Part shown: piece by piece, positions 1,927 to 30,024 of the stretch
How positions within the stretch are numbered: the first letter of the stretch is position 1
Layout of the letters: each line of letters starts with the position of its first letter
Assembly (NCBI GenBank): GCA_001275005.1
Contig: JWZX01002588.1
Span: 1-36,380 of the forward strand
Direction: 5' to 3'
Source of the DNA: Chrysochromulina tobinii
Lineage: Eukaryota
Length of the DNA stretch: 36,380 nucleotides
Translations under genes and position numbers: made by a program
Notes under the pieces: model-generated
Database searches by the model: none
What the model saw: only the letters and a program-made list of their open reading frames with translations
What the model was told of the DNA's origin: nothing

Positions 1927-3499
1927 ATGCTGCACGTCATCCTCCTCGCCTCCGCCGCACTCAGTCAGTCAGTCAGTCAGTTTCGTCGCGGTCCCCCCGC
2001 GCTCGCCGCACTCACGGTGAAGTACGACTCTTCACGTGCGGTAGCCATAGTCACCGAGCTCGCCCAGCGCAGCATTGGGGCTTTGCCTGAAGCCGAAGGC
2101 ACTGCACGCCTCAAGAGCTCCGTGCTCGAGCTGCTCGCTCCGTACGGCGACCCGGCACTGGGAGTACCTTCTGCTACCTTTGACGAGATCGATGCAAAGT
2201 GCCGTGCGCTCGAGGCCCGCAACCCCACAGGAGCCTCCACCGCGGTGGCCGCCCTCGATGGTGCGTGGCGCGTTCGATTCAGCGACGCGCCTCCGCCGTC
2301 TAACGGAGCCCTGGGCCCGCTCCGAGGCCGTGCGTTCCAAATCGTCGACGTGGCCAGCCGCACGTATCGCAATGAGCTGAGCCTCTTCGGCGGCGCTGTG
2401 CAGCTCTCACTGGCGGCCACCTTTGAGCAGCCGTCCGCCTCCAAGGCCGCGCTTCGCGTCGCCTTCCGCACGCTCACGGCGACGCTCGGCGGTGTGGCGT
2501 TGCCGTCGATCCAGTTCCCCACAGGCACGGAGCGTACGTGGCTGCTCACCTACACGGACGCCGACACGCGCGTCGTGCGCGCAGGCGTGGACGGAGGGCG
2601 CTCGACGGCGCGTGAGCTCGGTCTGATCAAGCAGGGAGAGGGCGAGTCGCCTGACTCGTACGCCGTTACCCTGATTGCGCCCTGATTACCGCCATTACCT
2701 CGTACGCCATTACCCGTGATTGCGCTCTGATTACCGCCATTACCTCGTACGCCATTACCTTAATTGCGCTCTGAGTTAACTGATTGCGCTCTGGGTGCGC
2801 CCTGAGTGCGCTCTGAGTACGCTCTGATTCGACCTCTCATCGGCCTCGGAGTGCAGGTACCTGTTCTACCTGACGCGGGCCCCCCCGGAGGAGGCAGCGC
2901 CCGCCTCGTTCTGGCGCGTCGTGTCGAGCACTATGGCCGCCGCAGGGCAGCGGCGCGCGCTCAAGACGGCGCTCATGCAGGCGTGTGAGGGGCAGCGCCT
3001 CGGTGCAGCCACGGACGAGGCCGGGCGTGCTCGCATCATCAATCTCATTCGGGAGCTCGAGCAGCTCAACCCGACCGCACGGCCAGCCCAGTCGACCAAG
3101 CTACTCGGCACCTGGCGCGTGGTTTGGACGACAGAATCCGAGCTGCTCGCGTTGACGAATTCGGGCCTCCTCGGGCTCCCTTGCCAGGGCGCCAGCCAGA
3201 CGATCGGGCGGACGGCGGCGGCGGACGAACGCGGCGCCCAACGCGGCGCCTTCGACTATTCCCTCTCGAACGAGATCAGCTTCGAGGGCGGCTTCCTGCG
3301 TGTTGGCTCCTCGTGCGAGCCGCAGGCACAGGGTGGGCGCGTCAACTTCCGGTTCGAGTCGTGTGCGGCCAAGTGGCGCTCCGTCCAGCTGCCTCTCCCT
3401 CCGGTCGGCTCCGGCTGGTTTGAGGTGCTCTACTTGGATGAGGACCTGCGGCTGTGCACCGACGTGCGCGGCGACTGGCAGGTGTGCATCAAGGGTTGA
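1927..3499 (+). CDS. Plastid lipid-associated (PAP/fibrillin) protein with two tandem domains; exons 1927-2657, 2857-3499
   Basis: Two fibrillin-type segments (LEARNPT...LDGAWRVRFS...WLLTYTDADTRVVR; LEQLNPT...LLGTWRVVWTTE...GWFEVLYLDEDLRLCTDVRGD). A GT-AG intron joins them in frame (..PDS|YLFYLTR..). N-terminus MLHVILLASAALS resembles a signal peptide plus transit peptide. Confidence 0.85.
2658..2856 (+). other. Spliceosomal intron (GT-AG, 199 nt) filled with CTGATTGCGC/ATTACC repeats
   Basis: GTACGC...GTGCAG; removal restores the reading frame; the downstream exon also starts GTAC. Confidence 0.85.
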
Positions 3500-3728
3500 A
3501 GGGGCTCGTTCGCACTGTGGCCGAACGCTCTTCTTCTCAGTCAGTGACGGGCACGGATTGGAAGCCCGCACATGCCCACTTAGCATGCACTCGATCTTTC
3601 CGAAATTCGAAACGTCTTTTGTGTGGGTTCTTGCACATCGCACGGCAGTTCCTGCCTGGATTAAATCCTGCGCGGATTCGACACTGCCGCGCTCTGCAGA
3701 GTGCCGCGACACCAGTTCCACACAAATC

Positions 3729-5171
3729 ATGAAGCTTCGCACCATCCTGCTCCTCCCTCTGCGCCTGGGTCGCCTACGGAAATCGTCGCGGCGTCGATAC
3801 ATTGTGCCTCTCGGCGACGCACCTCCGCAGTACAACGTTGCGCCTCTCACATCGGCGCAGGCAGCAGCTCATGCAGAGGCGGCACACATGTCGAGGCTCG
3901 CAATCGGCATCGCGGCAACGCGTGCAAAGCGCCTCGCGATGAGCGCAGATGCTGCCGAGCCTTGCCGCTACACGGACGATGATGCGTTTTTCGATGAGCT
4001 TGACCGCGATCAGCGCTTGAGGGTCGTTGGGCGCCACCTTGATCACGTTTCGAAACCATTACTGCTGCTCCGCGCCACGTGGCTCAAAGGGCACCACACA
4101 GATCGTCAGTTTCGGCTGCCCGCGACGCGCGAAGAGTTACCGGCGGAGGCCACGATCACCGTCGACGAGCTCCGGCAGATCCATAAGGAGTCGAGCGCGA
4201 AGGTCGCGCTACCGGTGATCGTACTCTCCCATTTTAGGCGAACCGCAGAGCACTCCGCTGATCCTCACGGTATCACAGCTCGCCTTCTCGTCGACGCGCT
4301 CGTGAAGCGGTGGCACGGCTTCACGAGGCGCGGCGTGCAGGAGCTGGGCGTGCTCATCGACTGGTGTGGCTGGGAGGAGGGTATGGACAAGGGTATGGAG
4401 GCGTCGCCCAGCGCCGATGCGTCACTTATGCGACAGGGGCTTTGGTTTGCTCACGCAGGGACGACAGTCTGGATGGCGACGACCAAGGGCGTCCCTGCGG
4501 AGCCTGCTGCAGGACTGAGCACACCGAGCGGTGAAGGCCATTCGTATTGGGCACTCGGCCATTGTGTGGCCGAGTTCGCACTGGCAAACCTCCTCAAGCC
4601 CGCCAGCAACTCAAGCACCGCCGACTGGCCACAACTCGTCGATCTTGGCAAAGAGGACGGGCCGGACGTTGCCTTTGACCGTCCGGCGCCCCTCACGCCC
4701 CTCGCGTTCCACTCTGGGCAACGGCATGGCGAAGATCTCGTCTACACCGCCCGTGCGCCGCGCGACAGCTTCGTGGCCCCCCTGTTCGAGCGTACGTGCG
4801 TCGAGCTGCTCAGCACCGTCGAGGAGCTCAACTTTAGCGGAGCGCGATGGGGTGACAAGGAGGCCGTGCAGCTGGCGCATGTGCTGCCGCTCTGCGTGCG
4901 CCTTCGGGTGCTCCGGCTCGAGAATAATGACCTGGGCGACGTCGGCGTGAGTGCGCTCGCGGTGGCGATGGCCTACCTGCCAGCCTTCGAGACCGTGAAG
5001 CTGCTCGGCAACCCACGCATTTCGCAGCGCGGCATGGCGGCCCTAGCGCGTGCGGGGGGCTCCAAGCCGCCGGAGCCGCCGCCAGACCGCCGCCCGAGCT
5101 TTGCACGAATGGCTGCGAAGCATGCGAACCTGCCGATGCTCTCTGCGGTGCGGGCGGGGCGTTCACCATGA
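3729..5171 (+). CDS. Degenerate HET-like domain plus C-terminal RI-type leucine-rich repeats (start uncertain)
   Basis: LRRs VEELNFSGARWGDKEAVQLAHVL, LRVLRLENNDLGDVGVSALAVAM, FETVKLLGN. Upstream VIVLSH...ADPHG...VLIDWC...HCVAE resembles HET-like motifs. Confidence 0.7.
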   Translation: MKLRTILLLPLRLGRLRKSSRRRYIVPLGDAPPQYNVAPLTSAQAAAHAEAAHMSRLAIGIAATRAKRLAMSADAAEPCRYTDDDAFFDELDRDQRLRVVGRHLDHVSKPLLLLRATWLKGHHTDRQFRLPATREELPAEATITVDELRQIHKESSAKVALPVIVLSHFRRTAEHSADPHGITARLLVDALVKRWHGFTRRGVQELGVLIDWCGWEEGMDKGMEASPSADASLMRQGLWFAHAGTTVWMATTKGVPAEPAAGLSTPSGEGHSYWALGHCVAEFALANLLKPASNSSTADWPQLVDLGKEDGPDVAFDRPAPLTPLAFHSGQRHGEDLVYTARAPRDSFVAPLFERTCVELLSTVEELNFSGARWGDKEAVQLAHVLPLCVRLRVLRLENNDLGDVGVSALAVAMAYLPAFETVKLLGNPRISQRGMAALARAGGSKPPEPPPDRRPSFARMAAKHANLPMLSAVRAGRSP

Positions 5172-5833
5172 CGTATGAGGATTCATGAGGAGGGCATGTC
5201 CGCACATGTTAGTCAGTTGACAAAGTCACTCTGAAAAGACGATCTCTTTCCTGAGCTACAATGCGTTCTAAGCTCAGTTCTAAGCTTCTAACTTATATGT
5301 ACCGGCGGAAACCCTCAAACGGATACGACGCGGAAGGTGTATATAGCGTGTACACGAGGGTCGGCGTGAAAGCACATGTGCTCGACACATGTGCATGGTA
5401 GTCCAGTCGAGTAGGGGCAGGGACTGAAGGTGCTGCTGCCCTGGGTTGCGGGTGGTGGGGCGCCCGTCGTACGGCTACGGGCCGGCGGCTTCGTCAGCTC
5501 CGACGAACGATCATTGACGAAACCGGACGAAACCGCGGACATGGCGAGGACCGCCGCAGCCTAACGGCAACGGCCGGCCTCCCACCACCTCTCTCAGGAG
5601 GTTGTAACTTGTATCATATAATGACGTCTAATACCGAACTTACGATACTAACTATCGTCTATCCCCGGGCGCCAGGGCCGGTATTTCAACTTCACCGCAC
5701 CCAACCGCGCCAACCTCCAACCGATCAATAACCTCACCTAGCAAGGACCACGGGAAGGCATCCTCCTGGTTCTTTCAGGTAAACATATTTGATATTAACA
5801 ACCCTTTGTCAACATACAACGTAGATATTGCAA

Positions 5834-8828
5834 TTAATTGCTTGAATCTGAATCTGAATCTGAATCTGCATCTGCATCTTCATCTTCATCTTCATCTTCA
5901 TCTTCATCTTCATCTGATGTCGAATGACAGCTATACATGGTGCCGACCCGAACTGCGTCACTTGCCCTGCCCATCGACTTCAGCAGCCGGACCACACCCT
6001 GTGCTGAGCTGCGCGTCTCCTGATGGGCATCGCCGTAGTGCGCGGTGCAGCCGTCAAGCTCCTCCATGAAGCATACCAAAGCCCCCTCCAGATCGCCTTG
6101 CGCCTGCAGCAGCGACCCAAGGCTGTAGATCGACCCTAGCGTGAGCGGGTGTGTGTCGCCCAGCGTCGCGCGCCTCACTGCCAGCGCCTCGCGGAACAGC
6201 GGCGCTGCGCCCTCCAGATCGCCTTGGTCCTGCAGCACCGACCCGAGGTTGTTGATCAACTGCACCATGGACAGGTGTGCGTCGCCCAGCGTCGCGCGAC
6301 TTTCTGCCAGCGCCTCGCGGTAAAGCAGCGCCGCACCTTCCAGATCGCCCTTGTCGTGCAACACCAAACCTAGTTGGTTGATCGACGTCAGCGTGTCCGG
6401 GTGCGCGTCGCCAAGCGTCGCGCGCCTCACTGCCAGCGCCTCGCGGCGCAGCAACGCAGCGCCCTCCAGATCGCCCTGCGCCTGCAGCAGCGACCCGAGG
6501 TTGTAGATCGACGTCAGCGTGTCCGGGTGCGCGTCGCCCAGCGTCGCGCGACTCGCTGCCAGCGCCTCGCGGAACAGCGGCGCCGGGCCCTGCAGATCAC
6601 CCTGCGCATACAACAGCGACCCGAGGTTTCTGATAAACGCCAGCGTGACCGGGTGCGCGTCGCCCAGCGTCGCGCGACTCGCTGCCAGCGCCTCACGGAA
6701 CAAAGGCGCCGCACCCTCCAGATCACCCTGCGCATACAACAGCGACCCGAGGTTGCTGATAAACGCCAGAGTGTCCGGGTGCGCGTCGCCCAGCGTCGCG
6801 CGACTCGCTGCCAGCGCCTCGCGGAACAAAGGCGCCGCGCCCTGCAGATCGCCTTGGTCATGCAGCAGCGACCCAAGGCTATTGATCGACGTCAGCGTGT
6901 CCGGATGCGCGTTGCCCAGCGTCGCGCGTCTCGCCGCCAGCGCCTCGCGGAACAACGGCGCCGCGCCCTGCAGATCGCCTTGGTCATGCAGCAGCCTCCC
7001 GAGGTTGTTGATCGACGTCAGCGTGTCCGGGTGCGCGTTGCCCAGCGTCGCGCGTCTCGCCGCCAGCGCCTCGCGGAACAACGGCGCCGCGCCCTCCAGA
7101 TCGCCTTGGTCATGCAGCAGCCTCCCGAGGTTGTTGAGCAGTTTCGACGTCCCGCGTTCCTCCTCGGGAAGCCGCGCGAGCGCCGCCCGTCCCCGGCTGG
7201 CCAGCCAGCCGCGCAGCGCCTCGGCGAGCAACGCATCGAGGCCGCGGTGCCCACCGGTGAGGCGCCGCTCTATCGCGTCGTGGATCATTGCCTCGTCATC
7301 CGGCGTGAAGCACACGGCCCGCCTCGAGTCGACGCGCGACACGGCCCTGGCGATCGCGTCGAACTCTGTTACCAACGCCGCTTCAAAGTCGACCGCCTCG
7401 GTGGGGGGTAGCTGCACACTCAGCCTCCGCCTTCCGGCCTCGCCGCCCGCAGCCACAGTGCAGAGCGCCTCCCACAAGATCCACGCGCGCCGAAGCGGCA
7501 CGGCATCGCGCCAAGGCGAAAAAACGAGGCACGTGTGCCCAATTGCGGCTGTCGTGAGCTGGAAGACGACATCCCAGTTGCAGGGCCGCTCGGCGCTGCC
7601 CACCTCGCCCAGCCAGTGTTGACTCTGCGAGAAGACGTCGAGCCAGACGTAGACTTCTTCCGGATTAGGCTGGCTTGCCGCAAAATCCTCGACGGACGAA
7701 ACGAGCTCGGCGAACTTGTACGCGCGCGCGTGCGAGACGAACGCGGTGGGCGCGGCCACGAATGACCGGCCTGACGCTGCAAGGTAACGCGCACGCAGAC
7801 ACGCGCATCAGTCATCCATCGAATGCCCCCCCCCTCCAGTGTGCACGATCCTCATGATGTGGCAGCTGGGCGCAGACCCGCGCGCGCGTCGGCTCCGCAT
7901 GTGCTTTCAGCACGCTATCAGTACGCATTACTCTGTTCGAGCGCGGAGCCACACCTTGGTCGACGGCGCCCACGCGCTGTAGACAGGCGGCGAGCGAGGC
8001 GCCTGCCCGCTCGGTGAGCGGCTTGCAAACTCGCTCGCACGCCTCCTCGGTCGTCGCGTTGCCGAGCTGCGGCGCGTGCGCGGCGGCGAATGCACGCAGG
8101 CACGCTACTGAGACGCCGAGGAATGGCCAGTTTGGTAGCGCGGCCACCGACGAGGCAGCCACCTCGAGCTCCGTCGGCCGCAGCGGCGCATGTCCCTCAG
8201 CTGCTAGTGCAAGGTCCTCGACGCGCACGCGCCAGCGCGTGCCGCCGTCGCCGCAGCGTTCGAGGAGGGTGATGCCCCGTCCGCAGTGCTGTAGCGTGTC
8301 CCACAGAGCGGCCGGATCGCCCACGGCGAGGGCCCGCCTCGCATCGCGCGCGTCAGCAGCCTCTGGCTCGAGCGTTGCGACACCGAGCCAGTTGAAGGAA
8401 CGAGTGGCTACCAGGTGCGGCGCCAGGCAGACCGCCGATGCCCAGATGTCACGGCCCGCGGCCCACGAGAAGACAACACTCGTGGCGGGGAAGGTGCCAA
8501 GCTCAACGAGCTTCCCGTCAACTCTCGTCCGCACCGCCCAAGATCCGTCCTCCTGCTCCTCTTTCAACACGCCCTCAGCACCCGGCACACTCGTCAGAGT
8601 CACCGGATCGCCAGGCTGCAGCGGCCTAGAGTGTTCGGGAGAGACAATCACCCTCACATCTGCCTGGCCCTCGCCCAAGTGCACGTCGAAGCCCTCTTTG
8701 GTGGGCTGAACCACGACGGATTGCGATAGCATCAGGCCAGGCAGATGCATGGACATGTTTGAGGCGGCGGAGTACGTGCGGCCCCACGAATAAGGCGGCG
8801 CAATTGGGAGGGTCACAGCATCGGGCAT
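5834..8828 (-). CDS. HET-like domain plus nine 42-aa TPR (kinesin-light-chain type) repeats; exons 8828-7955, 7776-5834; 5' end uncertain
   Basis: FVSHA..YKF, WLDVFSQSQH and PLRRAWILWE motifs, then repeats of DTLTSINNLGxLLxxQGDLEGAAPLFREALAxxRATLGDAHP. A phase-1 GT-AG intron joins two ORFs in frame (..VDQ|ASGRSFVAAPTAFVSH..). Confidence 0.85.
5843..5914. repeat. Graded hexamer microsatellite (TGAATC)4(TGCATC)2(TTCATC)6 encoding an acidic DE/DA/DS tail
   Basis: Read directly from the sequence. Confidence 0.95.
6020..7153 (-). repeat. 126-bp coding tandem repeat, 9 copies (TPR array)
   Basis: 42-aa periodicity with very similar nucleotide units. Confidence 0.95.
7777..7954 (-). other. Conventional GT-AG intron (178 nt), no flanking duplication
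   Basis: CAAG|GTGTGG...ACTGAT...TTGCAG|CG; restores frame. Confidence 0.8.
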
Positions 8829-8894
8829 CACCTCCTTGGGAAGCCTGACACACCGCGCGCGCGGGCCTCAACTTTCCCCTGTCCCCACAGTGGT

Positions 8895-8963
8895 TGTCGC
8901 GTCTGTCGTGTTAACGTTCACACGGGACACACCGGCTGTCGCGTCTGTCGTGTTAACGTTCAC
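8895..8963. repeat. 27-bp perfect direct repeat (42-bp period) in a divergent intergenic region
   Basis: TGTCGCGTCTGTCGTGTTAACGTTCAC at 8895-8921 and 8937-8963. Confidence 0.9.
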
Positions 8964-9308
8964 GGGGACACACGGGCACACGGATCCCAACCCACCAACG
9001 CACCCGCACCGCACGACCGCGCGACGACCGAATCCGCGGCCGCGGCTCAACAAACGTTCGAAACAAACGTACAAACCCAGCCGCAGCCCCGGAGCCGACC
9101 GCGGCACCGCGCCCCGCGGCCGAGTTAGAAGAGGCCGCCCCCTGCGAACCCGACCCTGCCGCCTTCCGCTCTCAGAGCGCCCCCCCGCGCCTGCTCAAAG
9201 GCGGTCGGCGAAATGAAGATTCAGAATGAATGTACCGGGTACTGTACCGGTAACGCATCAGTCTATACCGGTAACGCATGAAGTCCAGCATGGTTCAGCG
9301 GCCCCCGC

Positions 9309-10256
9309 ATGGTTTGTGCTCTGCCAGACACTGACTTGCTCCACCCGGAGTCCTGTCCCTGCAAGGAGCGTGTGGGTACGCTGGCCAAGCATGGGCTGCG
9401 TCGGCTCTGCCAGCCTTCGGTGCTATGCACGTTGTCGGTAAACGCGAGCATTGCGAAGGCGACCTTGCGGAGCCCACCGGCGGCGTTTGTGACTGTTCTG
9501 CATGCGGATGATCGCCATGTACGACCCAGGGGGCTCAGTGGCGCGCCCACGACTCAGTGGCGTGTTCAGGCAAGGCGGGTGGTCGAATTGGCCGCCAATC
9601 TACGGGCGGTCAATGCTTCACTGCCTTTGCACTGTTTGCTCACCGGCAGAAACTTGAGCGCTGTCAACATGACAGCTATGCGGATGCAGCACAATATGCA
9701 GCTGCACACGAGCTGGAAAGAGCCGACCGTGCCCACGTGGGCAAGCAAAATGCATCAAGCAACCTTCGCCAAGCTCTCCGTCATGAACGCAAGCTTGCAG
9801 CTCGGTCGGCGGCTCATCTACCTAGACACGGACATGCTCCTGCTGCGCAACATAGACCACCTGGCCAAGTCTCTCCCACCGGATGCACTAGCCTTCACAT
9901 TCCGAGCCGACCACGAGCTTGTGAACTCGGGCACCATGAGCTTTCACGTGAGCTCACAATCCCGCCTCGATGCGGCCTGGAGACTCATCGCCCGGGCGAT
10001 TGCGCGTCGCCCTTGGCAAGCATGCTCGGGTGACGGCGGCGACCAGCAAGTCTGGATCTACTTCCTAGCCCGCACGACGGAGCCGCTGATCGAGCTCCCA
10101 GCGTCATACAACCTTTACCCACCGCAGCTGGAGCAGCTTAATGACTCGCGGTGGTGTGAGAGGGCTCACGCCATCCACAAATCGAACAAGCTTGCGCGGG
10201 GTTCTTGCTTGGACTTTGTTCAGCGCTGGGAACGCAAGGCGCGGCGCGTCATATAG
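9309..10256 (+). CDS. Glycosyltransferase family 8 (glycogenin-like); start uncertain
   Basis: FAKL...RLIYLDTDMLLLRNIDHL (DxD), VNSG, GGDQQ, LPASYN and HK motifs typical of GT8. Confidence 0.8.
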   Translation: MVCALPDTDLLHPESCPCKERVGTLAKHGLRRLCQPSVLCTLSVNASIAKATLRSPPAAFVTVLHADDRHVRPRGLSGAPTTQWRVQARRVVELAANLRAVNASLPLHCLLTGRNLSAVNMTAMRMQHNMQLHTSWKEPTVPTWASKMHQATFAKLSVMNASLQLGRRLIYLDTDMLLLRNIDHLAKSLPPDALAFTFRADHELVNSGTMSFHVSSQSRLDAAWRLIARAIARRPWQACSGDGGDQQVWIYFLARTTEPLIELPASYNLYPPQLEQLNDSRWCERAHAIHKSNKLARGSCLDFVQRWERKARRVI

Positions 10257-10774
10257 CGTCATACGATAGGCGCGGCAGAGCAAGTGCAGTAAGTATGTAT
10301 AAGAAATGATAGCCGTTGTAGGAAGTTAATTAGAAGTTAACTTGAACGTGGTATACATGCACAAGTCCACTCCGGTCTCCGCTTGTCTCCGCACCATGCT
10401 GTGCCGTGCGCCAGTCGGACAATACACATTCCGCCACCAGACCACGCACGCGTCACAGACAGCTGCGAGACACCTTCATACCCCAGAGATGGCGCAAACT
10501 TGGATCGGCGCTAGATCGGCGCGGGTCTCACCTTCAAGTCCCGACCCCACGCCCGTGCCGCCGCCGCCGCCGCCGCCGCTTACCTTGCCTCTCCACTGCG
10601 CGACCATTGAACGCGGGCCCAAGACGCTGTGCGGCACGCTGTCGAGCCTCATACCCTAGCTGCTCCTCGCTGGCCTGTCTCGCGTTCGCACAAAGTGCCC
10701 CGCGTTCGCAGGAGCGCACAGCGTCCCTCGGACTGACACGCCTGCCCTGCTTGTCATAGGCGATTGCCGCGAGC

Positions 10775-12188
10775 TCACTTGGCGTCGGAGTCATAGCCGA
10801 GGTACGGTCCCATCCACTTTTCGGTCACCTCGAGCGACTGTCCCTTGCGGGCCGCGTAGTCGACCATCTGGTCCTTGCAGACCTTGCCCACCTGGAAGTA
10901 GGAGGCGCACTCGTTGGCGAAGACAAGCGCCGAGACCGAGGCCGCTGGGAGCATGGCGAGCGAGTCCGTCAGTTGGATGTCGCAGTTCTTATCCGCCTGG
11001 ATGAGCTCCCACATGAACTTCTTCTCCGTGTGGTCGGGCTGCGTCGGGTAGCCTGGGGCAGGCCGAATGCCCTGGTACTTCATCTTGAGCATGTCGTCCG
11101 CGGACAGCTTCTCGTCGGGAGCATAGCCCCAGAGCTCCTTGCGAATCTTGTGGTGCAGCAGCTCGGCGAAAGCCTCCGCGAGCCGATCGGCGACCGCCTC
11201 CATCATGATGCCCTTGTAGTCGTCGTTCTGCTCGCGCAGCTTGGCGCACACCTCCTCGCACCCGAAGCCGGCGGAGACGGCGAAGGCGCCAATGTAGTCG
11301 GTCTTGCCGCTCGTCTTCGGGGCGACGAAGTCGGACATGGCGTAGTAGGTCGCCTCTTCGCGCTCCTCCTGCTGGCGGAGCGTGTGGAAGGTGCCCAACT
11401 TGACGCCCGATCCGTCGGGCTTGTACACCTCGATGTCGTCGCCCACGCTATTCGCCGGCCAGATGCCCACGACGCCGTTCGCTTGGAGCGTCTTGTTCGC
11501 GATGATCTCGTCGATGAGCTTGAGCGCGTCGTTGTGCAGCTTCTTCGCCTCCTCGCCGACGGTCTCGTCGTTGAAGATCTTGGGGTAGCCGCGGTTGGGG
11601 TACTTGCCGCGCAGCTGCCACACCTGGAAGAAGGGGTTCCAGTCGATGTACGGCAGCATCTCCTTGAGGTCGTAGTCCTTGAAGACCTTGACGCCAAGGA
11701 GCTTAGGGGTCGGGATCGCGGTCGCCTTCCAATCGACGACGAGCATCTTGGCGCGCGCCTTTTCGAGCGAGAGGAACTTGCGCGAGGCGAGGGAACGGTA
11801 GTGGTCCTCGCGCATCTCCTCGTACTGCTCGCGCACGTCCTCCATGAACTCGGCGCGCTTCTTGTCGTTCAGGAGCGACTCGCACACAGAGACGGCGCGC
11901 GACGCGTCCAGCACGTGCATCGCGAAGCCCGATGGGTAGTTCGGTGACACCTTGACGGCCGTGTGCATCTTGGATGTGGTGGCGCCGCCGATGAGCAGGG
12001 GGATGCGAAGGCCCGTCCGCTCCATCTCCTTGGCCACAGTGACCATCTCGTCGAGCGAGGGAGTGATCAGGCCGGAGCAGCCGAGGATGTCCGCCTTATG
12101 GTCCACGCAGGCCTGCAGGATGTCGCGCGAGTTGCACATGACTCCGATGTCGACGATGGTGTAGTTGTTGCAGCCCAGCACGACGCCG

Positions 12189-12220
<32 letters not shown>

Positions 12221-15065
12221 CTTGACGGTGGCCATCACGACAACGCCCTTGCCCTTCTCCTCGATCTCGGCCAGGCCCGCCGCCTTGCGCTCGGCCGCGG
12301 CCTTGGCCTTCTCAGCCTCCATGAACGGCAGCAGGTACGCCACAGCCTTCTTCATGACGCGCGCCGACTTGATCACCTGCGGCAGGAACATCTTGCCCGC
12401 GCCGAAGAGATCGCCGACCACGTTCATGCCCTCCATGAGCGGACCCTCGATGACCTCCAGGTTGGTCGGGAACAGGTGACGCGCCTCCTCGGTGTCCTCC
12501 TCGATGAACTCGGCAATGCCCTTGACGAGGGCGTGCGTGAGGCGCGCGTTGACTGGCTTGCTGCGCCACTCAAGCGCGTCTTTCTTGGGGCCGGAGGACC
12601 CCTTGTTGTCCTTGTTCTCCTTTTGCTCCTCGGCGAACTTGAGCAGCCTCTCGACGTGCTCGCCGTCGGCCGATTGGTTGAGGACGACCTCCTCAATGTA
12701 GTCGCGCATCGGCTGCGGAATGTCCTCGTAGATGGGCATCGCGCCCGCGTTGACGATACCCATCGTCATCCCGTTCTTGATTGCGTGGTACAGGAAGACG
12801 GCGTGGATCGCCTCGCGCAGATCGAGGAGCCCACGGAAGCCGAACGAGAGGTTGGAGACGCCACCCGAGACCTTGGCACCGGGCAGGTTCTCAGTGATCC
12901 ACTTGGTGGCAAGGATGAAGTCCTTGCCGTAGTTGTTGTGCTCAGCGAGGCCGGTAGCGATCGTGAGGATGTTCGGGTCGAAGATGATGTCCCAGGGCGG
13001 GAAGTCGACCTTGGGCGACACGAGGATGTCGTACGCGCGCTTGCACATGGAGATCTTCTCCTCGTAACCCGCCGCCTGGCCCTTCTCATCAAAGGCCATG
13101 ACTACCACCGCCGCGCCGTAGCGTTTGACAATCTTGGCCTTGCGGATGAACTCCTCCTCGCCCTCCTTGAGCGAGATCGAGTTGACGATGCACTTGCCCT
13201 GGCAGCACTTGAGGCCCGCCTCCACAATGTGGAACTTGGACGAGTCGATGCAGAGGGGCAGCTTTGAGATGTCGGGCTCAGGGATGAGCATGTTGAGGAA
13301 CTTTTTCATCGCGAACTCGCCGTCGAGCAGCCCCTCGTCCATGTTGACGTCGATGACCTGCGCGCCCGACTCGGCCTGCTGGCGCGCGATCTCGAGCGCC
13401 TTGTCGTACTCGCCGTTCAGGATCAGCTTCTTGTACTTGGCTGAGCCCGCAATGTTGCACCGCTCGCCAATGTTCATGAACCCGAGGGACTTGTTCACAG
13501 TCAGAGGTTCGAGGCCCGAGATGCGCATCTCGGTGAAGGGCGGCGGGCGCTCGCGCGGACGGAACGGCGTGCCGTTCGCGATCGCGTCCATCACCATCTT
13601 GTTCACCGCCGCGATGTGCTCGGGCGTCGTGCCGCAGCACCCGCCAAGCGCGTTGACGAGACCCGTGTCAAGGAAGAGCTTGACCGACTTGGCGAACGAC
13701 TCGGGCGTCTCGTCGTAGCCGCCCATGGCGTTCGGCAGGCCGGCGTTCGGGTACGAGTGCACGAAGCACTCGGCCACGTTCGAGAGCGCCTGCATGAATG
13801 GGAGCATCTGGTCGGCTCCGAGCGCGCAGTTCAGGCCGATGCAGATGGGCTTCGCGTGCTGGACAGAGACGTAGAAAGCTTCCGTCGTCTGTCCGGAGAG
13901 GGTGCGGCCAGACATATCGACGATGGTGCCCGAGATCATCACCTGATGAGGGAGGCAATCAGACAGATGAGGGAGGCAATCAGACAGATGAGGGAGGCAA
14001 TCAGACAGATGAGGGAGGCAATCAGCCAGATGAGGGAGGCAATCAGCCAGATGACGCCCGAGATCATCACCGGCAGGCGCGGGCAGCCAGACTCCTCGTA
14101 GTACTCGTCGATCGCGTACAGCGCTGCCTTGGCGTTCAGCGTGTCGAAGATGGTCTCGACGAGCAGGATGTGCGCGCCGCCGTCGATCAGGCCCGCGACC
14201 TGCGTCTTATACGCGGCGACCACCTCGTCCCAGGTGCAGTTGCGGAAGCCAGGGTCCTCGACGGAGGGCGAGATGGAGAGCGTGCGGTTCGTCGGGCCGA
14301 TCGCGCCCGCCACCAGCCGCGGGCGGTGGGGCTCCTTGGCGGTGATCTCTTTGGCCGCGTCCACGGCGAGCTCGCATGCCTTCTTGTTCATGTCGTACAC
14401 GACGTGCTCCATCGCGTAGTCCGCCTGCGCGATGACGGTGCCCGAGAACGTGTTGGTCTCGCAAATGTCCGCGCCGGCCTCGTAGTACCGACGGTGGATC
14501 TCGCGGATCGTGTCCGGTTGCGTGAAGACGAGAAGATCGTTGTTGCCCTTGAGCTCCTGCGTCGGCGGGCAATCCTTGAACATCTCCATGCGGAAGTCCT
14601 CCTCGGTGAACTTGTACTGCTGGATCGTGGTGCCCATCGCGCCATCGATGATCATGATGCGCTCCTTCATGCACTTCGTGAGGTAGTCGTGGATCTTTTT
14701 CGCGTCCTGCTTGCCCGCCAGGCCCCACGGCAGGTCGGGCCAGTTGCCCTCGACCTTCTGGGCCACCTTCTTCGGCGCAGCCTTGGGGGCTCCACCGGCT
14801 ACGCCACGGGCCTCGGCCGTGGCCTTGCAGAGCGCCAGCTTCTTCGTCAGTGACTCGATCACCTGGGTTAGCTCCTCCTCGGACAAGGCGTCGTAGTCCA
14901 CGTTGGCTTGCTGGCGCTCGATTTCCTGAGGCGACAGAAGGCGGTGAGCTCGCCGCCGGTGAGCAGCGCAGCAAGGGAGAGGAGCAGCGTTGATAGAGAG
15001 ATCGCACGTTCGATGCACGGAGTCCACACCTTTTGGACGGCCGCGGCGATAGCGGTCTTGTCCAT
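10775..15065 (-). CDS. metH: Cobalamin-dependent methionine synthase; exons 15065-15030, 14925-14071, 13942-10775 (about 1352 aa)
   Basis: [21 protein letters not shown] (Hcy/Zn domain), IGERCN (pterin domain), [15 protein letters not shown] (cobalamin binding), GIRPAPGYP (AdoMet reactivation). Two GT-AG introns restore the frame. Confidence 0.97.
13943..14070 (-). other. Intron (GT-AG, 128 nt) = 21-nt copy of downstream exon + five 21-nt repeats + AG
   Basis: CCG|GTGATGATCTCGGGCGTCATC (TG[G/T]CTGATTGCCTCCCTCATC)x5 AG|GTGATGATCTCGGGCACCATC; removal restores the conserved [11 protein letters not shown]. Confidence 0.95.
14926..15029 (-). other. Conventional GT-AG intron (104 nt) of metH
   Basis: AAG|GTGTGG...GCTCAC...CCTCAG|GAA; gives an in-frame ATG exon. 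Confidence 0.8.
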
Positions 15066-16433: not shown

Positions 16434-16507
16434 AGGCACCACCGGACTACCGGTAAAAAGACACCGGGGGGAGCCGGGACACACAGTCCGGTAGTCCGGT
16501 GGTGCCT
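16434..16507. repeat. Perfect 20-bp inverted repeat with 34-nt spacer
   Basis: AGGCACCACCGGACTACCGG (16434-16453) / CCGGTAGTCCGGTGGTGCCT (16488-16507). Confidence 0.95.
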
Positions 16508-17643
16508 CATACGCTAGGTAGGGGGGCGTGTGTGTGGGGACTGTGCTTGACTTGTGGGGAACATCCGGGGAGCCTCGCTTTGCATGCTTTGTGAAAAAAG
16601 AGGGGGGAAGGGGGGGAAGGGTCATTTGCAGGAAGATGCGGGATTTAAAGCACGGCTTTTCGAGGAGCATGTTGAAGTGATTTAGAGATGATTATACATG
16701 TAGTCCCGAGGTACATGTATGCCATGAGAGCCGAACATTGCACTCACTCACGTATGATCTGCAATCAAGCACAGTGTTTAAGCACAGTGTTAATTGCAAA
16801 CACACATACCCCTGCTACCCCTGCTTGGACGTGTGGACCGACGCTCACACAGCCTGCCAAACACACATTACCCTCAGGGCCCATTACCCTATCGGTGGCG
16901 TGCAAGACGGCCTCGCTTGGACGCAGCAGCTCATAAGAGAAACAACAGACGCACACCAGGATCGAGGATGACCGTATTATGACCGTATGGCTGTAGAGCA
17001 GCCCCAATGCATCTAAATGCATCTTGAGCACAGTCCATTCCTTTCCCCACATCTGCCCCCCCCACACACTCGTGCATATCAACCCCCCCATGCTTGACAT
17101 GTTCCAGCATGCTTGGCAGTTGGCACTGGTGCATATTGGCGACCAGGGCCTTACCAATGCGCTTCTGGCCGAAGCCGTACCGTATTTGAGGATGCGAGGG
17201 CGGATCGGTGAGCAGTCTTGGCCTCCTCCACACACGCCGACAAAGGAGGCCCTTGTTCCCGAGGAGCGAAACCACGAAACACAAGGCTTTTCACAGCACA
17301 GGGTAAATTCGACACCTGTTTGACAGTGTTGAGCAAACATCTCGTCTTCCCACAGCCCGACAGAAGCAAAAGTGCTCCACATGCTTGGTATTTTGAGTGT
17401 CATGCTTCGGCGACAAGATTCCTCTTCACCGTTTCACGGTGTTCAGTTGTTCACCGCGAGCCCTTCCGCGGGGTGTCGACTGATTGCGTGGACTCTCTGC
17501 CAGGGTACAGTTAGGGTACGTGTATGTTACCAACGCCGCTGCTAACAGTGGCCCCATCGGTACTATTGGGTTACGTTAGGGGGGAGGGTCTCTCCTTCCC
17601 CCGCCCGCCGCCGATTAACGGCCTGTGTAATAGCAGGCTGTGT

Positions 17644-17722
17644 CGGCCACGCCTCCGTCCATTGCGATTGCGGCCCCCGTGCTTGGGGGTCCGGAGAGCG
17701 CGCGCGTTGTGTGTTTCACAGC
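17644..17722 (+). repeat. Dispersed 79-bp repeat, copy 1 (upstream of CSPP1-like gene)
   Basis: 71/79 identical to 30468-30546, ungapped. Confidence 0.93.
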
Positions 17723-17850
17723 AGCAGCACCGCGAGTCTTGGTTTCGTCACACGCGTGTGCCAAAACGCGCGGGTTTTGCGCGCCGCCGGAGCGACCACA
17801 ACGCCAAAGCGGTCGGCATAGTTGCCGGCATTGATCAAGGGCAACGATCA

Positions 17851-21909: not shown

Positions 21910-22157
21910 TAGGCGCTCCAGTCCAATGCGAGCTCATCAAACGACGCGCGGGCATACCAAGTACACATACGTAGGTCGAGGTCAAGGATGGAGAGAACGT
22001 CCACCTCAGGTAGGATGGGAGAACCTGTGCGTTTTACGTGTTGTGTGAATTCATAAGTGATGAAGAGCTTTAGAGGCCCGTCCATAGTGTTTTCGTCAGG
22101 GACTGGGACTTGTGGAGGGGCCTTCATTTCAGCAGCAACCCGGCGTACTCCAGTGCC

Positions 22158-23003: not shown

Positions 23004-23146
23004 ATGTTCCCTCATATCTTTGCTAGCACTTTTCTGAAGATGATTCGAACTCCGGTCTCGTCAATGTGGCGATCGATGCGGATCGCGAGCTCGATTTGTG
23101 TGCACGGAATGTGGATGTGGCAGACCTCGGATTCAGCGTTGCCGCG

Positions 23147-23758: not shown

Positions 23759-24528
23759 CGTCCACGTGCTCGTATATTCGCATGAATCAAGGCCATCCAC
23801 GTGGATGGCGCTTGAACGCCTCCCTGGGTGTTGTCTCGACTCCTGAGATACGACTCTGAACCGACGCCGACGGAGCGCGCGGACGACACGGGACGACGTC
23901 GCGGGGGGAGACAGGGCGCGCATGTCCATGTCCTTATTTTGGGAAGCATGGTGCAAGTGCAAGCCTTCCGTCACCGCAGTTAAACTTGAATCTCGTCTCG
24001 GCGCGCGTACGCTCGCCGTTGTCCAGCCGTTGCGCCCTCGCCCCCGCCGGTTATAGCGGGTTTTCGTTTGATAGCATTCGCGGCATTATATGGGTTCGTC
24101 GCGGTCGTTCGAAAACCAAAAACTGTTATTATGAAAACGAACGGACGGTACCGTCGCGGTCGATTGCGGCGTTGGCCGGCGCCGGCGGGCGACGCGACAC
24201 TTCTAAACACTATAGCGACTGCACCCGCGGCGGGGCTGTGCGGCCGGTGCGCCGCCCTCCGCACGCCACGTCGCCACCGCCCGCCCGAGACCCGGGCTGG
24301 CGGCGCGGGACCGGCAGCGGCACGGCACTTGCGCACACCCGCGGCGCGCCCGCGCACCACGCGCACCACCGCGGCGCGCCGCCCCGCAGCGCCCGCGCAC
24401 CACCGCGCCGCGACACACACGCACGCGCGACGTGCCGGCGCGGGCGCGCAGGGCGACGCCCCGCATGGGACCGGACACACGTTCCGGCTACCGGGTACCG
24501 CGTACGCAACGGCGTTGCCGGCTTCGAC

Positions 24529-26142
24529 CTACGCGACTACAGGGTACACGTACAGCGCCTCGTACCGTCTAAGTCCCTTGCGGGTGTGGGAGCTTCCCCA
24601 AGCATGCCCATGCAGTCGGCGCTTACGTCGCAACTCGTCTGCTGGCGGGACGGCGCTTGAGACGGCGCTCGACCTGCGAGGAGGCGGCGGGGGAAGCTCC
24701 CCGTAAAGCGACCGAGACGGAGCTAGAGTTGCGCCGAGCACCTTGAGCCGACGCAGCACAACGTCGGCCACCGCGCCGCGGCTAAAATGCTCAACCATGG
24801 TCGCACGTGCTCGGGCGCCACGTTCCTTCGCGGCCGCGCCGTCGCCACTCGTCGCCTCGTCGTAGGCACGTCGCATGGCCTGGCGCAGCATCGCAACTGT
24901 CGTCTCGGCGAAGCCGCCAGCGAGCTCACGCGCGACGGGCAGCTGGTGCGAGTTGTGCGCCGTCAAAAAGGCCGTTGGGCCCGAAAAATTGGTCGCGATG
25001 ACTGGTAGCCCCATCGCCATCGCCTCTGCAATCGGCAGCCCCCATCCTTCGCCGCGCGTCGGCAGGACGAAGCAGTTCGAACGCGCGTACAGCCGCCGCA
25101 AGGCGACGCGCGAGACGTCCTCCTGTAGGAGCTCTACCGGCGCCAGCTTGTCGCGCGGAGCCCTCGCCACCTGGAGCGCATGCCGGCTCACCCACTCATT
25201 GAGGTCGCGAGGGCCAGGCTCCCACGAGGGGAGGTACGACTTGATCACCTGATGAGAGAGTCCATCAGAGTCCATCAGAGGCCATCAGAGTCCATCAGAG
25301 GCCATCAGAGGCTAATCAGAGGCCATCTTAGGAAATCAGAGGCAATCAGAGGCAATCAGAGGAAATCAGAGTCCATCAGAGCCTCCCCATATGAGGGGAG
25401 GTAGTTGATGGATCACCAGCTTGACTGCGCTGCGCTCTCGAGCACTCGTGAATTCACACCAGTAGGCCTCGAGGAGCAGGTCCCAGCCTTTGCGCCACTC
25501 CCACTTGAATGAGGACAGGAAGACAAAGGGGCTCGGCGATGGCGCCGGTGTGTCGCCGACCTTGGCGCTCGGCCGTTTCCACCAGCCGAGCGGCCCGTCA
25601 CTTGGCTCTTCTACCACCGAGGGGATGTAGTTGGGGTGGAAGAAGTCCACGTCGACGGGCTCTGGCACCACGTGCAAAAGGGAGCGTGCGATGCCCGCGG
25701 CAACAAATGTGTCGACGTGCCATGCGGTCGGCACCCAGATCTCGTCGGCGTGGCGCAGGCAGGCGGCCTGCTCCGCCTTCAGGCTGGATTCAGTCATAGT
25801 GCGCGCAACGACGCGCCAAGGACGGGCGCTGCTCGACTGCCAGCGCCGCATGCTGCACGGCTCGCCATGCTCAATGACGAGCGCCCCGTGCGTCTGCTGA
25901 GCAGAGCGCGCATTCTCATCGGCCCACGTGGCACGGTACGTAGCGGCGTCACGGGCCTCAAGTTGTCCATCAAGCCAGACATCGTCGCATTTGCCCGTCA
26001 AAAGCCGGACGGCCACACCCTTGTCGTGTAGGCCGGGGACGAAGCCTAGCGCCACCTCGGTGAAAAAGCCGGAGAAGCCGCAGCCGACAGGTACGCGCCA
26101 CTCGACCTCGAATTGCACGGGGCTCGATGTTGACAAGGACAT
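24529..26142 (-). CDS. GT-B fold glycosyltransferase (GT4/group 1-like); exons 26142-25417, 25248-24529; 5' end uncertain
   Basis: DEIWVPT, VPEPVDVDFF, FKWEWRKGWDLLL, FVLPTRGEGWGLPIAEAMAMGLPVIATN (EX7E motif). Confidence 0.88.
25249..25416 (-). other. Intron (GT-AG, 168 nt): degenerate copy of downstream exon + about twelve 10-nt CTCTGAT(GG/TG/TT) repeats
   Basis: CTG|GTGATC...CTCTCATCAG|GTGATCAAG; restores AVKL|VIKSYLP. Confidence 0.92.
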
Positions 26143-26538
26143 GGCCTGGCTTTCATGCTCCAACCTGCTCGTCCTTTCCTGTGAAAATACACGATCCTCG
26201 ACAACACTCGTCCTCGACGCGCCGACCTTCGCTCAAAGCCTCCCTTCCACTGGCTTCACATCTCTCAGCCGCTAACATATGTTCATATCGTGGGAATCCT
26301 GGTGCGCCCCCCCACAGGGTGGGCGCGGATCTCCTCTCTGCGCGCTGCCTCTCTGCCTCGACCCCTCGCGCCTCGCGCCTCGCGATGTGCTGCGCGCCTT
26401 GCGAATCTGCGTGTGAACTCTACGGCGCCTTTTCACGGCGCGATCTGATCGCGGCGCGCCCTTCCCCCTGTACTTGACCCTCCCCCTCCGTGTCTCGCAC
26501 GAGGACAAGGGGGGAGGCTCAGAACCTCGTGACGAACC

Positions 26539-27723: not shown

Positions 27724-27885
27724 TGCTGCTGCGAGCGCGGCCACCGCGGGGCCTCGAGGCCCTCGAGAGCTCTCGAACGCCACTGGGGAAGAAGGTGGTT
27801 GGTGAAATGGCGCTAAGGAATCTGCAAGGGAATATTTCGCGCCATCACGGCAGCCCTTTTCGACTCAGCTTCCCTCCACACACCA

Positions 27886-30024
27886 ATGCTAGCGAGGCGC
27901 TTCTCGTGCCCGCCGGTCTTCGAGGCCGCGTACGAGCCGCGAGAGGTGCCGGAGGCCGCGCGCGACATGCACGGCTCGGTCATCTTCCGGCCGACTCGTG
28001 ATGACTGGCTTCCGCTCCTCGGCGAGATGATCCAATTGACCAATGAAGCCGTACGCAGGCGGGCTGCGAGCGCACGCGACGCGTCGAAGCCTCTTCAGCT
28101 CGAGTTCATGGCGGACCGCATCGATGTCGACGACCCGCTCTTCGGGTACATCGCCGTCACCAAGGACAAGGGGTGGCTGCAGGGCTTCATCACGGCCACT
28201 ACCTTCACCACTTGGCACCGTGGCTTTCGCTGGGACTCCCTGAGTCCGTGCGTCGACCTGCAGCACGAGCTGTCCCACGACGACGACAACGCGAGCTCGC
28301 CGTCGGGCTTCACGGCCGTGGCCAACAGCGGCGGCAGCGGCGGCAGCGCGAGCGCGCGCCGGCGTGCTGCCACCGCATCGCTCGCCAGGGAGCGCGTTGT
28401 CGACTCGGACGGCAGCTTGAGCGCCGAGCTGATGCAGGAGGTGTTCGCGGGGGACCCCGACGGCGAGGGTGTCGTCTGGCCGCGCGTGGCCGAGATCTCG
28501 CTCCTCGGCGCCCTCGGCTGCGGGCGGTGGCTCGTGCAGGCGCGTGCCACTAATTGCCACTGATTGCCACTGATTGCCACTGATTGCCACTGATTGCCAC
28601 TGATTGCCACTGATTGCCACTGATTGCCACTGATTGCCGCCGCGCTCGAGGCTCGTGCAGCTGCTCATTGACGGCCTCGAGGTGGCCGAGAGCCCTTACC
28701 ACTTCGTCGTGCTGATGGCGACGCACAACGCGATCCCCTTCTACGAGAAGATGGGCTTCGTGCGCGTGGGCGCCGTGCTGGCGACGCGCGTTGAGCCCTT
28801 GGCCGACGAGGACGGCGACGAGGCGGAGGGAGCTGGCATCGGCACTAAGAAGCGCAAGCGCGCGGCGGCGGCCGCCGCTGCCGCGAAGCCCGCGGAGGAA
28901 GGCAAGGGGCGGGTGCACTCGAGGCTGGTTGAGCACACGTGCAAGGAGGGCGAGACGGCCGCGAGCGTCGCCGCCCAATATGGCGCCGACGGCTTCGACG
29001 TCCTCTTCGTCAACCAGCGCCGCTTCCCACAGCTGCACCAGCACGCCCCCCTTCGAGCTGGCACGCAGCTCCAAGTGCCACGCCCGTTGAGTCGCGAGGA
29101 GGCGATCGAGGAGCTCCGCAAGCAACGGCAGAGCTGGCACACGGTCACGCAGGAGGCGACGCTTCGACGGCTCGCCGACATCACCGGCGTCTCGGCGGAC
29201 GAGCTCTATCGTCTCAATAAGGGGCGGCTCGACGGTTTGCAGTTAGGCGCCACGTTGCGCGTGGGCACGCGGCTGCTGACGGCGGGCGTGGACGGGCAAA
29301 AGGACGAGGAGTACTGCCATTGGTCCTTCCCCGATGACGAATCGCCCGATGAGCCCTCCCCTTGCATGCAAGTGCTCACCACAGCGCGGCCCCCTACATT
29401 CCCCACAGGAGCTTCCCCGATGACGAATCGCCCGATGAGCCCTCGTACATGATGGCTCGGAAGCTCAAGCCAGCTCACGAGCGCAAGGCTGGCGGCGCCC
29501 AAGCGCCCGCCACAACGCTCGAACAAGCGAAGCGCCTGCTCGTCGCCCAGAGGCCGACCGTGGTACCCGTGCCCGGGCGCCAGGCGGTCGTCGAGGCGGC
29601 ACGGCGGCGCACGGCCGCGCGCGTCGCCGTCGCGCATCCCGACCTATTCGACAAGGTCGTGCGTCTGGATGCGCATGGCTCGCACGAGACGCGGTACCAG
29701 TTCTGGTATGTGCTCACCTACCTACCCGACCTGCAGTGGTGCCACCTGGCACCCCTCGAGCGCCGCGGCACCTTCGGCGAGAGGCCGAGCCCGAATGGCC
29801 ACGTGGCCACGGGCCGCGACCGTTGGATGCTCGTGGCGGAAGATCTGGGCGGCGAGATTGACGTTGGGGCGGGGCGCTGCTTTGTCGTGAAGGCGACGCC
29901 GATGATGAAGGCCAAGGACGCCATGGACGCCAACAAGGAGGAGTGGGACATCGTCGAGCTTGATGGCGCCGTGATGGGCGTCGAGGAGCCGGCGAGGGCG
30001 GAGATGGTGATGGACGAGGAGTGA
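27886..30024 (+). CDS. GNAT-type acetyltransferase with two LysM-like domains; exons 27886-28539, 28661-29322, 29409-30024
   Basis: GALGCGRWLVQ...VVLMATHNAIPFYEKMGFVRVG (GNAT motifs A/B); HTCKEGETAASVAAQYG...LFVN and HTVTQEATLRRLADITGVSADELYRLN (LysM-like); KKRKR; two introns join three ORFs in frame. Confidence 0.8.
28540..28660 (+). other. Probable GC-AG intron (121 nt): (TGATTGCCAC)x9 plus 11-nt copy of the upstream exon end
   Basis: GGCTCGTGCAG|GCGCGT...GGCTCGTGCAG|CTG; phase 0; restores frame. Confidence 0.82.
29323..29408 (+). other. Intron (GT-AG, 86 nt): 33-nt perfect copy of downstream exon + 50-nt filler with palindrome CTTGCATGCAAG
   Basis: TG|GTCCTTCCCCGATGACG...CCCCACAG|GAGCTTCCCCGATGACG; restores YCHWSFPDD. 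Confidence 0.85.

What the first reader, a model, noticed from the sequence alone, without database searches (positions are those of the whole stretch)
2658..29444. Candidate intron-generating system: introns made of an exon duplication plus a repeat filler
Seen: five of nine inferred introns contain a direct copy of the adjacent exon. metH 13943-14070 has 15 nt perfect (19/21); GT 25249-25416 about 33 nt degenerate; 28540-28660 11 nt; 29323-29408 33 nt perfect; 2658-2856 4 nt perfect with possible longer degenerate similarity. In each, the duplicated segment supplies one splice site (GT, or AG for 28540) and the filler supplies the other. The remaining introns (7777, 14926, 30854, 35015) show nothing beyond short proto-splice matches. 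Established: introner transposons make introns with short TSDs, and repair of staggered breaks has been proposed for introns flanked by direct repeats. Inference: the variable and long duplications, absence of TIRs and repeat filler fit neither classic model well. They suggest recent intron birth at staggered breaks by reiterative synthesis of a splice-signal cassette.
Basis: partly seen in the sequence, partly recalled or inferred. Interest (0 to 1): 0.92.

Follow-up and report, generated by a model that had tools for sequence, protein, structure and literature searches.

The report
Young algal introns with long duplications
In the alga Chrysochromulina tobinii, four introns are short inserts of repeated splice signals set between two copies of 11 to about 33 bases of the gene itself, and near-identical versions of two of these genes appear to lack them, so they are likely new introns made by a small copying element that published screens missed.

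Summary
The window is Chrysochromulina tobinii. Four of the five claimed duplications hold: 15, 11 and 33 nt perfect, about 33 nt degenerate. The 4-nt case at 2658 is chance-level. Independent assemblies and ~99% sister alleles keep the three duplications they cover. The introns look recent. A METH 1331/1332 identical, called intron-blind on 23-27 kb contigs, reads through the 13943 site. A 93% allele and all distant loci covering the sites lack both LysM-gene introns. Inserts are 53-131 nt, lack terminal inverted repeats, lie sense to the gene, and consist of branch-site repeats and acceptor modules that recur across the genome. Best reading: a tiny SINE-like insert placed at staggered cuts, likely by a borrowed reverse transcriptase (0.45). 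Rival: break repair copying other introns (0.3). No enzyme was found; no genome is held. Chrysochromulina introners are published (4-bp duplications), but C. tobinii scored zero families. This scan noted the same footprint before on another contig of this genome. New variant of a known kind.

The parts
13943..14070 (-). metH intron 2 (128 nt, GT-AG): 15-nt copy of the downstream exon plus a 113-nt insert of five 20/21-nt branch-site/acceptor units, of which only the last keeps its AG
   Evidence: spliced in RNA contigs X18, X16; read through by intron-blind calls P0047/P0287/P0292
14056..14070 (-). intron-side copy of the 15-nt target duplication; supplies the GT donor
   Evidence: sequence; slide 15 right + 1 left; 'both 16'
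13928..13942 (-). exon-side copy of the 15-nt duplication
   Evidence: sequence
13943..13962 (-). 20-nt terminal cassette (branch motif with A at -17, pyrimidine run, acceptor); shared core of many other genomic contigs
   Evidence: tables 5 and 7 (14 DNA contigs diverge at 13941, 11-14 at 13960-13963)
25249..25416 (-). GT4 glycosyltransferase intron (168 nt, GT-AG): degenerate 37-nt copy (25380-25416) of the first 33 nt of the next exon (25216-25248), then a 131-nt 10-mer array ending in a 17/20 match to the cassette in the same register
   Evidence: spliced in X14, X18; 5' part identical in L006
28540..28660 (+). LysM-protein intron 1 (121 nt, GC-AG): 110-nt insert carrying the donor and a 10-mer branch-site array, then an 11-nt copy (28650-28660) of the upstream exon end (28529-28539) that supplies the AG
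   Evidence: one RNA contig, X18; absent from 8 distant loci and read through in 11 of 15 cluster proteins
29323..29408 (+). LysM-protein intron 2 (86 nt, GT-AG; predicted, matches the NCBI model P0002): donor 3 nt before a perfect 33-nt duplication (29326-29358 / 29412-29444); 53-nt insert 29359-29411 carries branch motif, acceptor and 3 exonic bases
   Evidence: no RNA joint seen; absent from 7 distant loci, read through in 12 of 15 cluster proteins
29360..29389 (+). second dispersed module; joined to 10-mer arrays at other genomic places
   Evidence: tables 5 and 5c (joints 28629-29360, 28574-29360, 29387-28557 in DNA run X10)
2658..2856 (+). PAP-fibrillin intron (199 nt, predicted): filler of the same type (11-mers, 14/20 cassette match at -33) but only a chance-level 4-nt duplication; internal 45-nt tandem repeat
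14926..15029 (-). control intron (metH intron 1): no duplication, no filler
7777..7954 (-). control intron (TPR gene; predicted, frame closes): no duplication
30854..31018 (+). control intron: spliced, no significant duplication; identical in L007
35015..35264 (+). control intron: spliced, no significant duplication
10775..15065 (-). [quoted passage not shown]
24529..26142 (-). host gene: GT4 glycosyltransferase
27886..30024 (+). host gene: LysM-domain protein (Ctob_004251), 643 aa spliced
1927..3499 (+). host gene: double PAP-fibrillin protein, 457 aa spliced

Best explanation
These introns are 53-131-base inserts of branch-site repeats and acceptor modules that sit between two direct copies of 11 to about 33 bases of coding sequence; they likely arrived recently, as copies of a tiny non-coding repeat family placed at staggered cuts, most likely by target-primed reverse transcription with a borrowed LINE-type enzyme. 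Shown: the duplications, the shared modules, sense orientation, splicing of three of the four, and intact reading frames across the sites in relatives. Inferred: (1) a staggered cut whose overhang is filled in gives the duplication; (2) a short RNA with one fixed end (the 20-nt cassette or the second module) and one repeat end of variable length is copied into the cut, with slippage on the repeat; (3) only inserts that happen to find the missing splice site in or next to the duplication (GT at 13943 and 25249, AG at 28540, a GT 3 nt upstream at 29323) restore the mRNA and survive, which explains the one orientation; (4) arrays keep changing length afterwards and the duplication decays with age.
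For: Duplications of 11 and 15 nt fall in the 7-18 nt range given for L1 and RTE elements, which often end in microsatellite-like repeats (PMC6007223 passages). Length varies between loci and there are no terminal inverted repeats. The cassette abuts the duplication at the same register in metH (20/20) and GT (17/20), against at most 15/20 in 2000 random 150-nt stretches of the window. In DNA run X10, 14 contigs leave the window exactly at the cassette end and 11-14 leave at its other end into other arrays; summed contig depth in the bins holding fillers is 686-14,904 against about 40 in single-copy bins (the tool warns this is not a copy number). Apparently empty alleles: METH P0047/P0287 1331/1332 identical, starting at internal Val21 behind intron 1 and reading through the site on contigs up to 27,425 and 23,485 nt; 10 of 15 LysM cluster members (93% allele) read through both sites; 8 distant DNA loci lack the 28540 intron and 7 lack the 29323 intron. 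19 of 22 matches of the filler 8-mer in the window lie in these introns, all sense to the host gene (3.45 expected in all).
Against: No reverse transcriptase or partner LINE was found: no genome is held, and 42 window ORFs gave no RT or transposase. A 33-nt duplication is longer than the usual non-LTR range. The 28540 insert lacks the fixed cassette end, and the 29323 insert has no array and carries 3 bases beyond its AG, which fits copying from genomic DNA or pre-mRNA as well. Only four events were examined. The empty METH and 93% LysM alleles are seen as proteins only; their DNA could not be fetched, and intron-blind calling is inferred from internal start codons and read-through into introns.
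Confidence: 0.45

Rival explanations
1. Break repair with capture: a staggered double-strand break is filled in and patched with sequence copied from the 3' part of another intron (DNA or RNA template), with no element-specific enzyme. The family grows because each new intron is a further template.
For: Daphnia neointrons show exon-shared direct repeats of 4-12 bp read as staggered breaks (PMC4202315 passages). Inserts here differ in make-up and ends; the 29323 insert carries 3 extra bases past its AG; overhang length is unconstrained (11-33 nt).
Against: Repair alone does not explain why 3 of 4 duplication-bearing inserts, plus the 2658 intron, use one repeat type, or the fixed register of the cassette in two genes; the listed Daphnia repeats are shorter.
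Confidence: 0.3
2. One reading: a dedicated telomerase-like enzyme writes branch-site repeats de novo into staggered breaks from one short template RNA.
For: The very young metH insert already holds five near-identical units with a partial unit at its start; units are multimerised branch sites.
Against: Units differ from intron to intron (10, 11, 21 nt) and one insert has none; arrays change length after insertion (L006); no template RNA or enzyme found (Rfam 0 hits).
Confidence: 0.1
3. The introns are old; relatives lost them (for example by deletion between the direct repeats), and the duplications arose later inside them.
For: A deletion between the direct repeats would restore the empty site exactly; the GT duplication is already degenerate; mosaic LysM alleles show that haplotypes mix.
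Against: All distant loci that cover the sites lack the introns (8 and 7 loci); perfect 15- and 33-nt copies in neutral sequence imply youth.
Confidence: 0.08
4. A classical MITE-type DNA-transposon introner.
For: Introners are common in marine Chrysochromulina MAGs, one with 4-bp duplications, no TIR and a co-opted 3' site (PMC9860276 Fig. 2C legend; table rows).
Against: No TIRs; duplication length varies 11-33 nt, whereas published classes have fixed 3-9 nt; inserts are not alike end to end.
Confidence: 0.05
5. Assembly artefact of short reads at simple repeats.
For: Short-read contigs break at the arrays (table 8); no long reads were laid.
Against: L003 and L004 match the window 100% over 18,495 nt; L006 and L007, with their own substitutions, keep the GT and LysM duplications they cover; RNA splices the predicted lengths.
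Confidence: 0.02

Closest known systems
Introners of Chrysochromulina sp. TARA MAGs (Gozashti et al. 2022, PMC9860276)
   Same: Same genus; repeated intron-making inserts without TIRs; one splice site carried, the other co-opted from a target duplication (as at 28540).
   Different: Published example has a 4-bp duplication and near-identical copies; here 11-33 nt, both architectures occur, and inserts share only modules. C. tobinii is listed with 0 introner families in the 2025 follow-up (PMC12130899 supplement file 7).
Emiliania huxleyi introner fam24 (PMC12130899 supplement file 8)
   Same: Haptophyte; 'co-opt 5', carry 3''; noted with '10bp terminal direct repeats'; mechanism unknown.
   Different: 5 copies, one table row, automated TSD call of 2 nt; sequence not seen, so kinship is untested.
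Polarella/Symbiodinium introner-like elements (bioRxiv 10.1101/2020.10.14.339549)
   Same: 5' site recruited from the duplication, 3' site carried; shifts of splice register relative to the duplication (as at 29323).
   Different: Each class has a fixed 3-8 nt duplication; Symbiodinium elements have inverted repeats.
Daphnia pulex neointrons from staggered-break repair (PMC4202315)
   Same: Presence/absence among alleles; direct repeat shared with one adjacent exon; internal repeats.
   Different: Repeats 4-12 bp; no shared branch-site repeat family in the passages seen.
Non-LTR retroposons (L1/RTE-driven SINEs; PMC6007223)
   Same: Variable 7-18 nt duplications, no TIR, microsatellite-like end.
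   Different: No partner LINE or promoter identified; inserts are very short; their repeat doubles as a branch site.

Membership tests
Introner (mobile-element-derived intron family) | Present in one allele or species, absent at the same site in relatives | tested here: met
   (three introns; protein-level for the closest alleles)
Introner (mobile-element-derived intron family) | Spliced out precisely | tested here: met
   3 of 4 duplication-bearing introns; 29323 not seen
Introner (mobile-element-derived intron family) | Copies at unrelated loci alike over most of their length | tested here: inconclusive
   only modules shared (20/20, 17/20, 14/20, 13/20); many other genomic contigs share them; full-length copies could not be surveyed
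TIR/MITE DNA introner | Terminal inverted repeats | tested here: not met
TIR/MITE DNA introner | Fixed short (3-9 nt) target duplication | tested here: not met
   11, 15, 33 and about 33 nt
Non-LTR retroposon (SINE-like) | Variable target duplication of about 7-18 nt | tested here: inconclusive
   2 of 4 in range, 2 longer
Non-LTR retroposon (SINE-like) | One fixed end and one simple-repeat end, no TIR | tested here: inconclusive
   met in metH and GT; 28540 lacks the fixed end, 29323 lacks the array
Non-LTR retroposon (SINE-like) | Autonomous LINE sharing the 3' end | not testable with these tools
   no genome held; none among window ORFs
Break-repair neointron (Daphnia type) | Direct repeat shared with the adjacent exon | tested here: met
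   longer than the 4-12 bp reported
Intron gain by tandem exon duplication | Intron consists of duplicated exon sequence only | tested here: not met
   53-131 nt of non-exon insert

The most novel reading that the evidence does not exclude
C. tobinii runs an active intron-writing system: a reverse transcriptase that copies, and stutters on, a minimal branch-site/acceptor RNA at staggered cuts in genes, so that working introns are built in one step from multimerised splice signals rather than from a transposon body; similar branch-site arrays in other haptophytes would be its footprint.
Probability: 0.15. Interest if true: 0.9.

Novelty: new variant of a known kind. Interest (0 to 1): 0.66.

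Why it matters
How new introns arise is still argued between transposons and break repair. Here a cultured alga with a small genome appears to carry presence/absence differences between alleles that encode practically the same protein, and the footprint (long variable duplications, inserts made of splice signals) fits neither the fixed-duplication introners nor unique repair patches. Screens that need end-to-end similar introns score this genome as zero, so this route may be undercounted. It is testable at once on the public C. tobinii assembly and lake metagenomes.

Tried and rejected
No whole genome is held, and the metagenome contigs behind L002, L003, L008, L009 and L011 are not held as records, so no genome-wide count and no RT search were possible. 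Filler patterns gave 0 hits in viral contigs. In GTDB contigs they gave 2 and 27 hits, all in bacterial context, with 2-7 matches of a shorter pattern in each of 5 genomes checked: not haptophyte contamination, not used. L002 (22 kb, probably a paralogous locus) has no filler introns. Cluster look-ups for the window's GT, PAP and control-intron frames could not be made, so the state of the 25249 and 2658 introns, and of the control introns, in the closest alleles is open. GT relatives at 54-72% identity read through the site (14 proteins viewed, 13 with the motif), but DNA or RNA origin is unclear for most. PAP relatives span the junction (6 viewed) with unknown source: uninformative. No RNA joint for 29323-29408 (low cover, not evidence of absence). 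RNA contigs of X17 and X19 run into the GT intron, and X17 also into a control intron: retention or DNA carry-over, undecided. Rfam: 0 hits. The 7-nt inverted matches inside the GT intron's 5' copy may be chance and were not used. The first null contained the true exon ends and a wrong TPR donor and was replaced. Literature searches listed no paper describing this footprint in C. tobinii. The recalled report of 10-11-bp intron repeats in E. huxleyi was not found in the library. Supplement files 13-14 of PMC12130899, the cut part of the PMC9860276 table (70 of 214 places seen) and the bioRxiv supplements were not seen and could hold related families.
Full report
Organism. The second exon of the gene at 27886-30024 matches Ctob_004251 of Chrysochromulina tobinii at 100%, on a contig of 36,380 nt. 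The genome paper gives METH as Ctob_004248 (PMC4580454, passages).

Observation. The nine introns were tested with an alignment anchored at the splice site, against all coding 40-mers of the window that share the splice dinucleotide (TPR intron). Four stand out: 13943-14070 (15 nt perfect; 0 of 742 null values reach it), 25249-25416 (37 nt against 33 nt, degenerate; 0 of 742), 29323-29408 (33 nt perfect; 0 of 743) and 28540-28660 (11 nt perfect, 3' end; 2 of 962). The 2658 intron (4 nt; 27 of 742) is not significant among 18 ends tested. The four remaining introns are at null. The intron-side copy has Ser TCC, as do the two distant loci with Ser there (L005, L020), while the exon now has AGC. 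The insertion therefore likely swapped one Ser codon for the other, which suggests a filter for inserts that restore the protein.

Splicing. RNA contigs skip 13943-14070 (X18, X16; 16 letters fit both sides) and 14926-15029. They also skip 25249-25416 (X14, X18; short side 23 nt), 28540-28660 (X18 only, depth 2.9; a GC-AG intron), 30854-31018 and 35015-35264. No joint was listed for 29323-29408, where cover is low; the NCBI model and all homologues have the spliced form. The DNA run breaks at the arrays but shows no joint that skips these introns among the rows listed (41 rows not shown).

Not an artefact. L003 and L004 match the window at 100% over 18,495 nt. L006 and L007, about 99% identical in exons, keep the duplications they cover; L006 has one 10-mer fewer in the 28540 array. 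No long reads were available.

Recent gain. METH proteins P0047 and P0287 are identical to the window's spliced METH at 1331 of 1332 positions (the one difference in P0047 is the start codon read as Met) and P0292 at 1324. All three start at internal Val21, just behind intron 1, and read through the 13943 site, on contigs up to 27,425, 23,485 and 7,574 nt. A neighbour TPR protein sits on a contig of the same 23,485-nt length. I infer intron-blind calls on DNA that keeps intron 1 and lacks intron 2. For the LysM gene, 10 of 15 cluster members (an allele 93% identical, contigs up to 37 kb) read through both sites. P0014 reads through site 1 and into intron 2; P0015 and P0023 start at site 1 and read through site 2; P0022 starts at site 1 and reads into intron 2; P0017 reads into intron 1. 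Intron 2 tracks window-type residues just before it. These mosaics may be recombinants or chimeric assemblies. At DNA level, of 24 loci, 8 distant ones cover site 1 without an intron and 7 were read across site 2 without one; the intron-bearing loci are the window's own type (L003, L004, L006-L008), and the rest do not cover the sites or were not read by motif. For the 25249 and 2658 introns the closest alleles could not be checked.

The insert. None has terminal inverted repeats. The metH insert is a partial unit plus five branch-site/acceptor units, only the last with AG. The terminal 20-mer recurs in the GT intron at the same register (17/20) and more weakly at 2658 (14/20) and 28540 (13/20); control introns reach 10-11/20 and 2000 random stretches at most 15/20, with 16 of 2000 at 14 or more. 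Filler introns hold 6-13 branch-type motifs, controls 1-2. The filler 8-mer occurs 22 times in the window (3.45 expected); 19 lie in these introns, all sense to the gene. In the DNA run, bins with fillers have summed depth 686-14,904 against about 40. Many contigs share the cassette and then diverge on either side, and the second module (29360-29389) is joined to 10-mer arrays elsewhere. The fillers are thus parts of one genome-wide repeat family.

Mechanism. Long, variable duplications, no inverted repeats, one fixed end and one simple-repeat end are the marks of non-LTR retroposition (7-18 nt for L1, 7-15 nt for RTE; PMC6007223, passages). Against it: the 33-nt duplication, the two atypical inserts, and no enzyme among 42 window ORFs. 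Break repair that copies other introns is the main rival (0.3). That these are recent, duplication-flanked insertions I hold at about 0.9.

Known systems. Introners are published for marine Chrysochromulina MAGs, with a 4-bp duplication in the figured case (PMC9860276, passages and supplement rows). C. tobinii has 0 families in the 2025 screen, and one E. huxleyi family is noted with 10-bp terminal direct repeats and unknown mechanism (PMC12130899, passages and supplement files 7-8). Dinoflagellate classes have fixed 3-8 nt duplications (bioRxiv 10.1101/2020.10.14.339549, parts 1-2 of 4). Daphnia neointrons share 4-12 bp with the exon (PMC4202315, passages). A review of transposon-derived introns does not mention haptophytes in its main text (PMC11282704, term search). 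Nine literature searches listed no description of this footprint; unseen supplements could hold one. It agrees with this reading and led me to the dinoflagellate paper, but it is not independent evidence and I did not check its counts.

Verdict. A real, recent intron-making insertion family with an unusual footprint: a new variant of a known kind, mechanism open but directly testable. Interest 0.66.

Noticed in passing
window 29368: An in-frame GC donor inside the insert would add 15 residues, mostly a repeat of the duplicated peptide, if used with the same acceptor.
   Followed up: partly
window 27886-30024; P0011-P0024: Two allele classes of the LysM gene (93% identical) occur as mosaics in metagenome proteins: recombination between divergent lineages or chimeric assemblies.
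   Followed up: partly
window 28540 and about 28773-28946: The NCBI model Ctob_004251 drops one Trp at the GC-AG intron and omits 58 residues that are open frame in the window and present in homologues; probably annotation errors.
   Followed up: partly
window 2655-2774: A 45-nt tandem repeat (2.7 copies) starts 3 nt inside the upstream exon and so carries two more copies of the donor region into the intron.
   Followed up: no
L012 788-912, L014 about 3939-4072; L012-L017, L021: Unidentified 69-72% GC relatives have their own introns at other sites of the LysM gene; one holds a 10-mer array built on the CTCAC branch motif, with 4-7 nt repeated at the junctions.
   Followed up: no
window 16448-16485 and 17576-17730: Intergenic repeats with very high depth in the DNA run (over 200,000 at 16465); a similar motif lies in L002 9842-9906. 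Possibly another small mobile or promoter-like repeat.
   Followed up: no
window 32431-32498: 5-mer microsatellite, 15 nt shorter in L008.
   Followed up: no
L002 4774-5482: AT-rich satellite of 10-11-nt units in both orientations, unrelated to the intron filler.
   Followed up: no
L027-L053: 27 places in bacterial genomes carry three or more copies of a similar 10-mer, mostly apparently between genes; likely unrelated.
   Followed up: partly
window 25382-25401: The intron copy of the GT duplication forms a 7-bp hairpin, longer than the 5-bp one in the exon copy; may be chance or fold-back copying.
   Followed up: no
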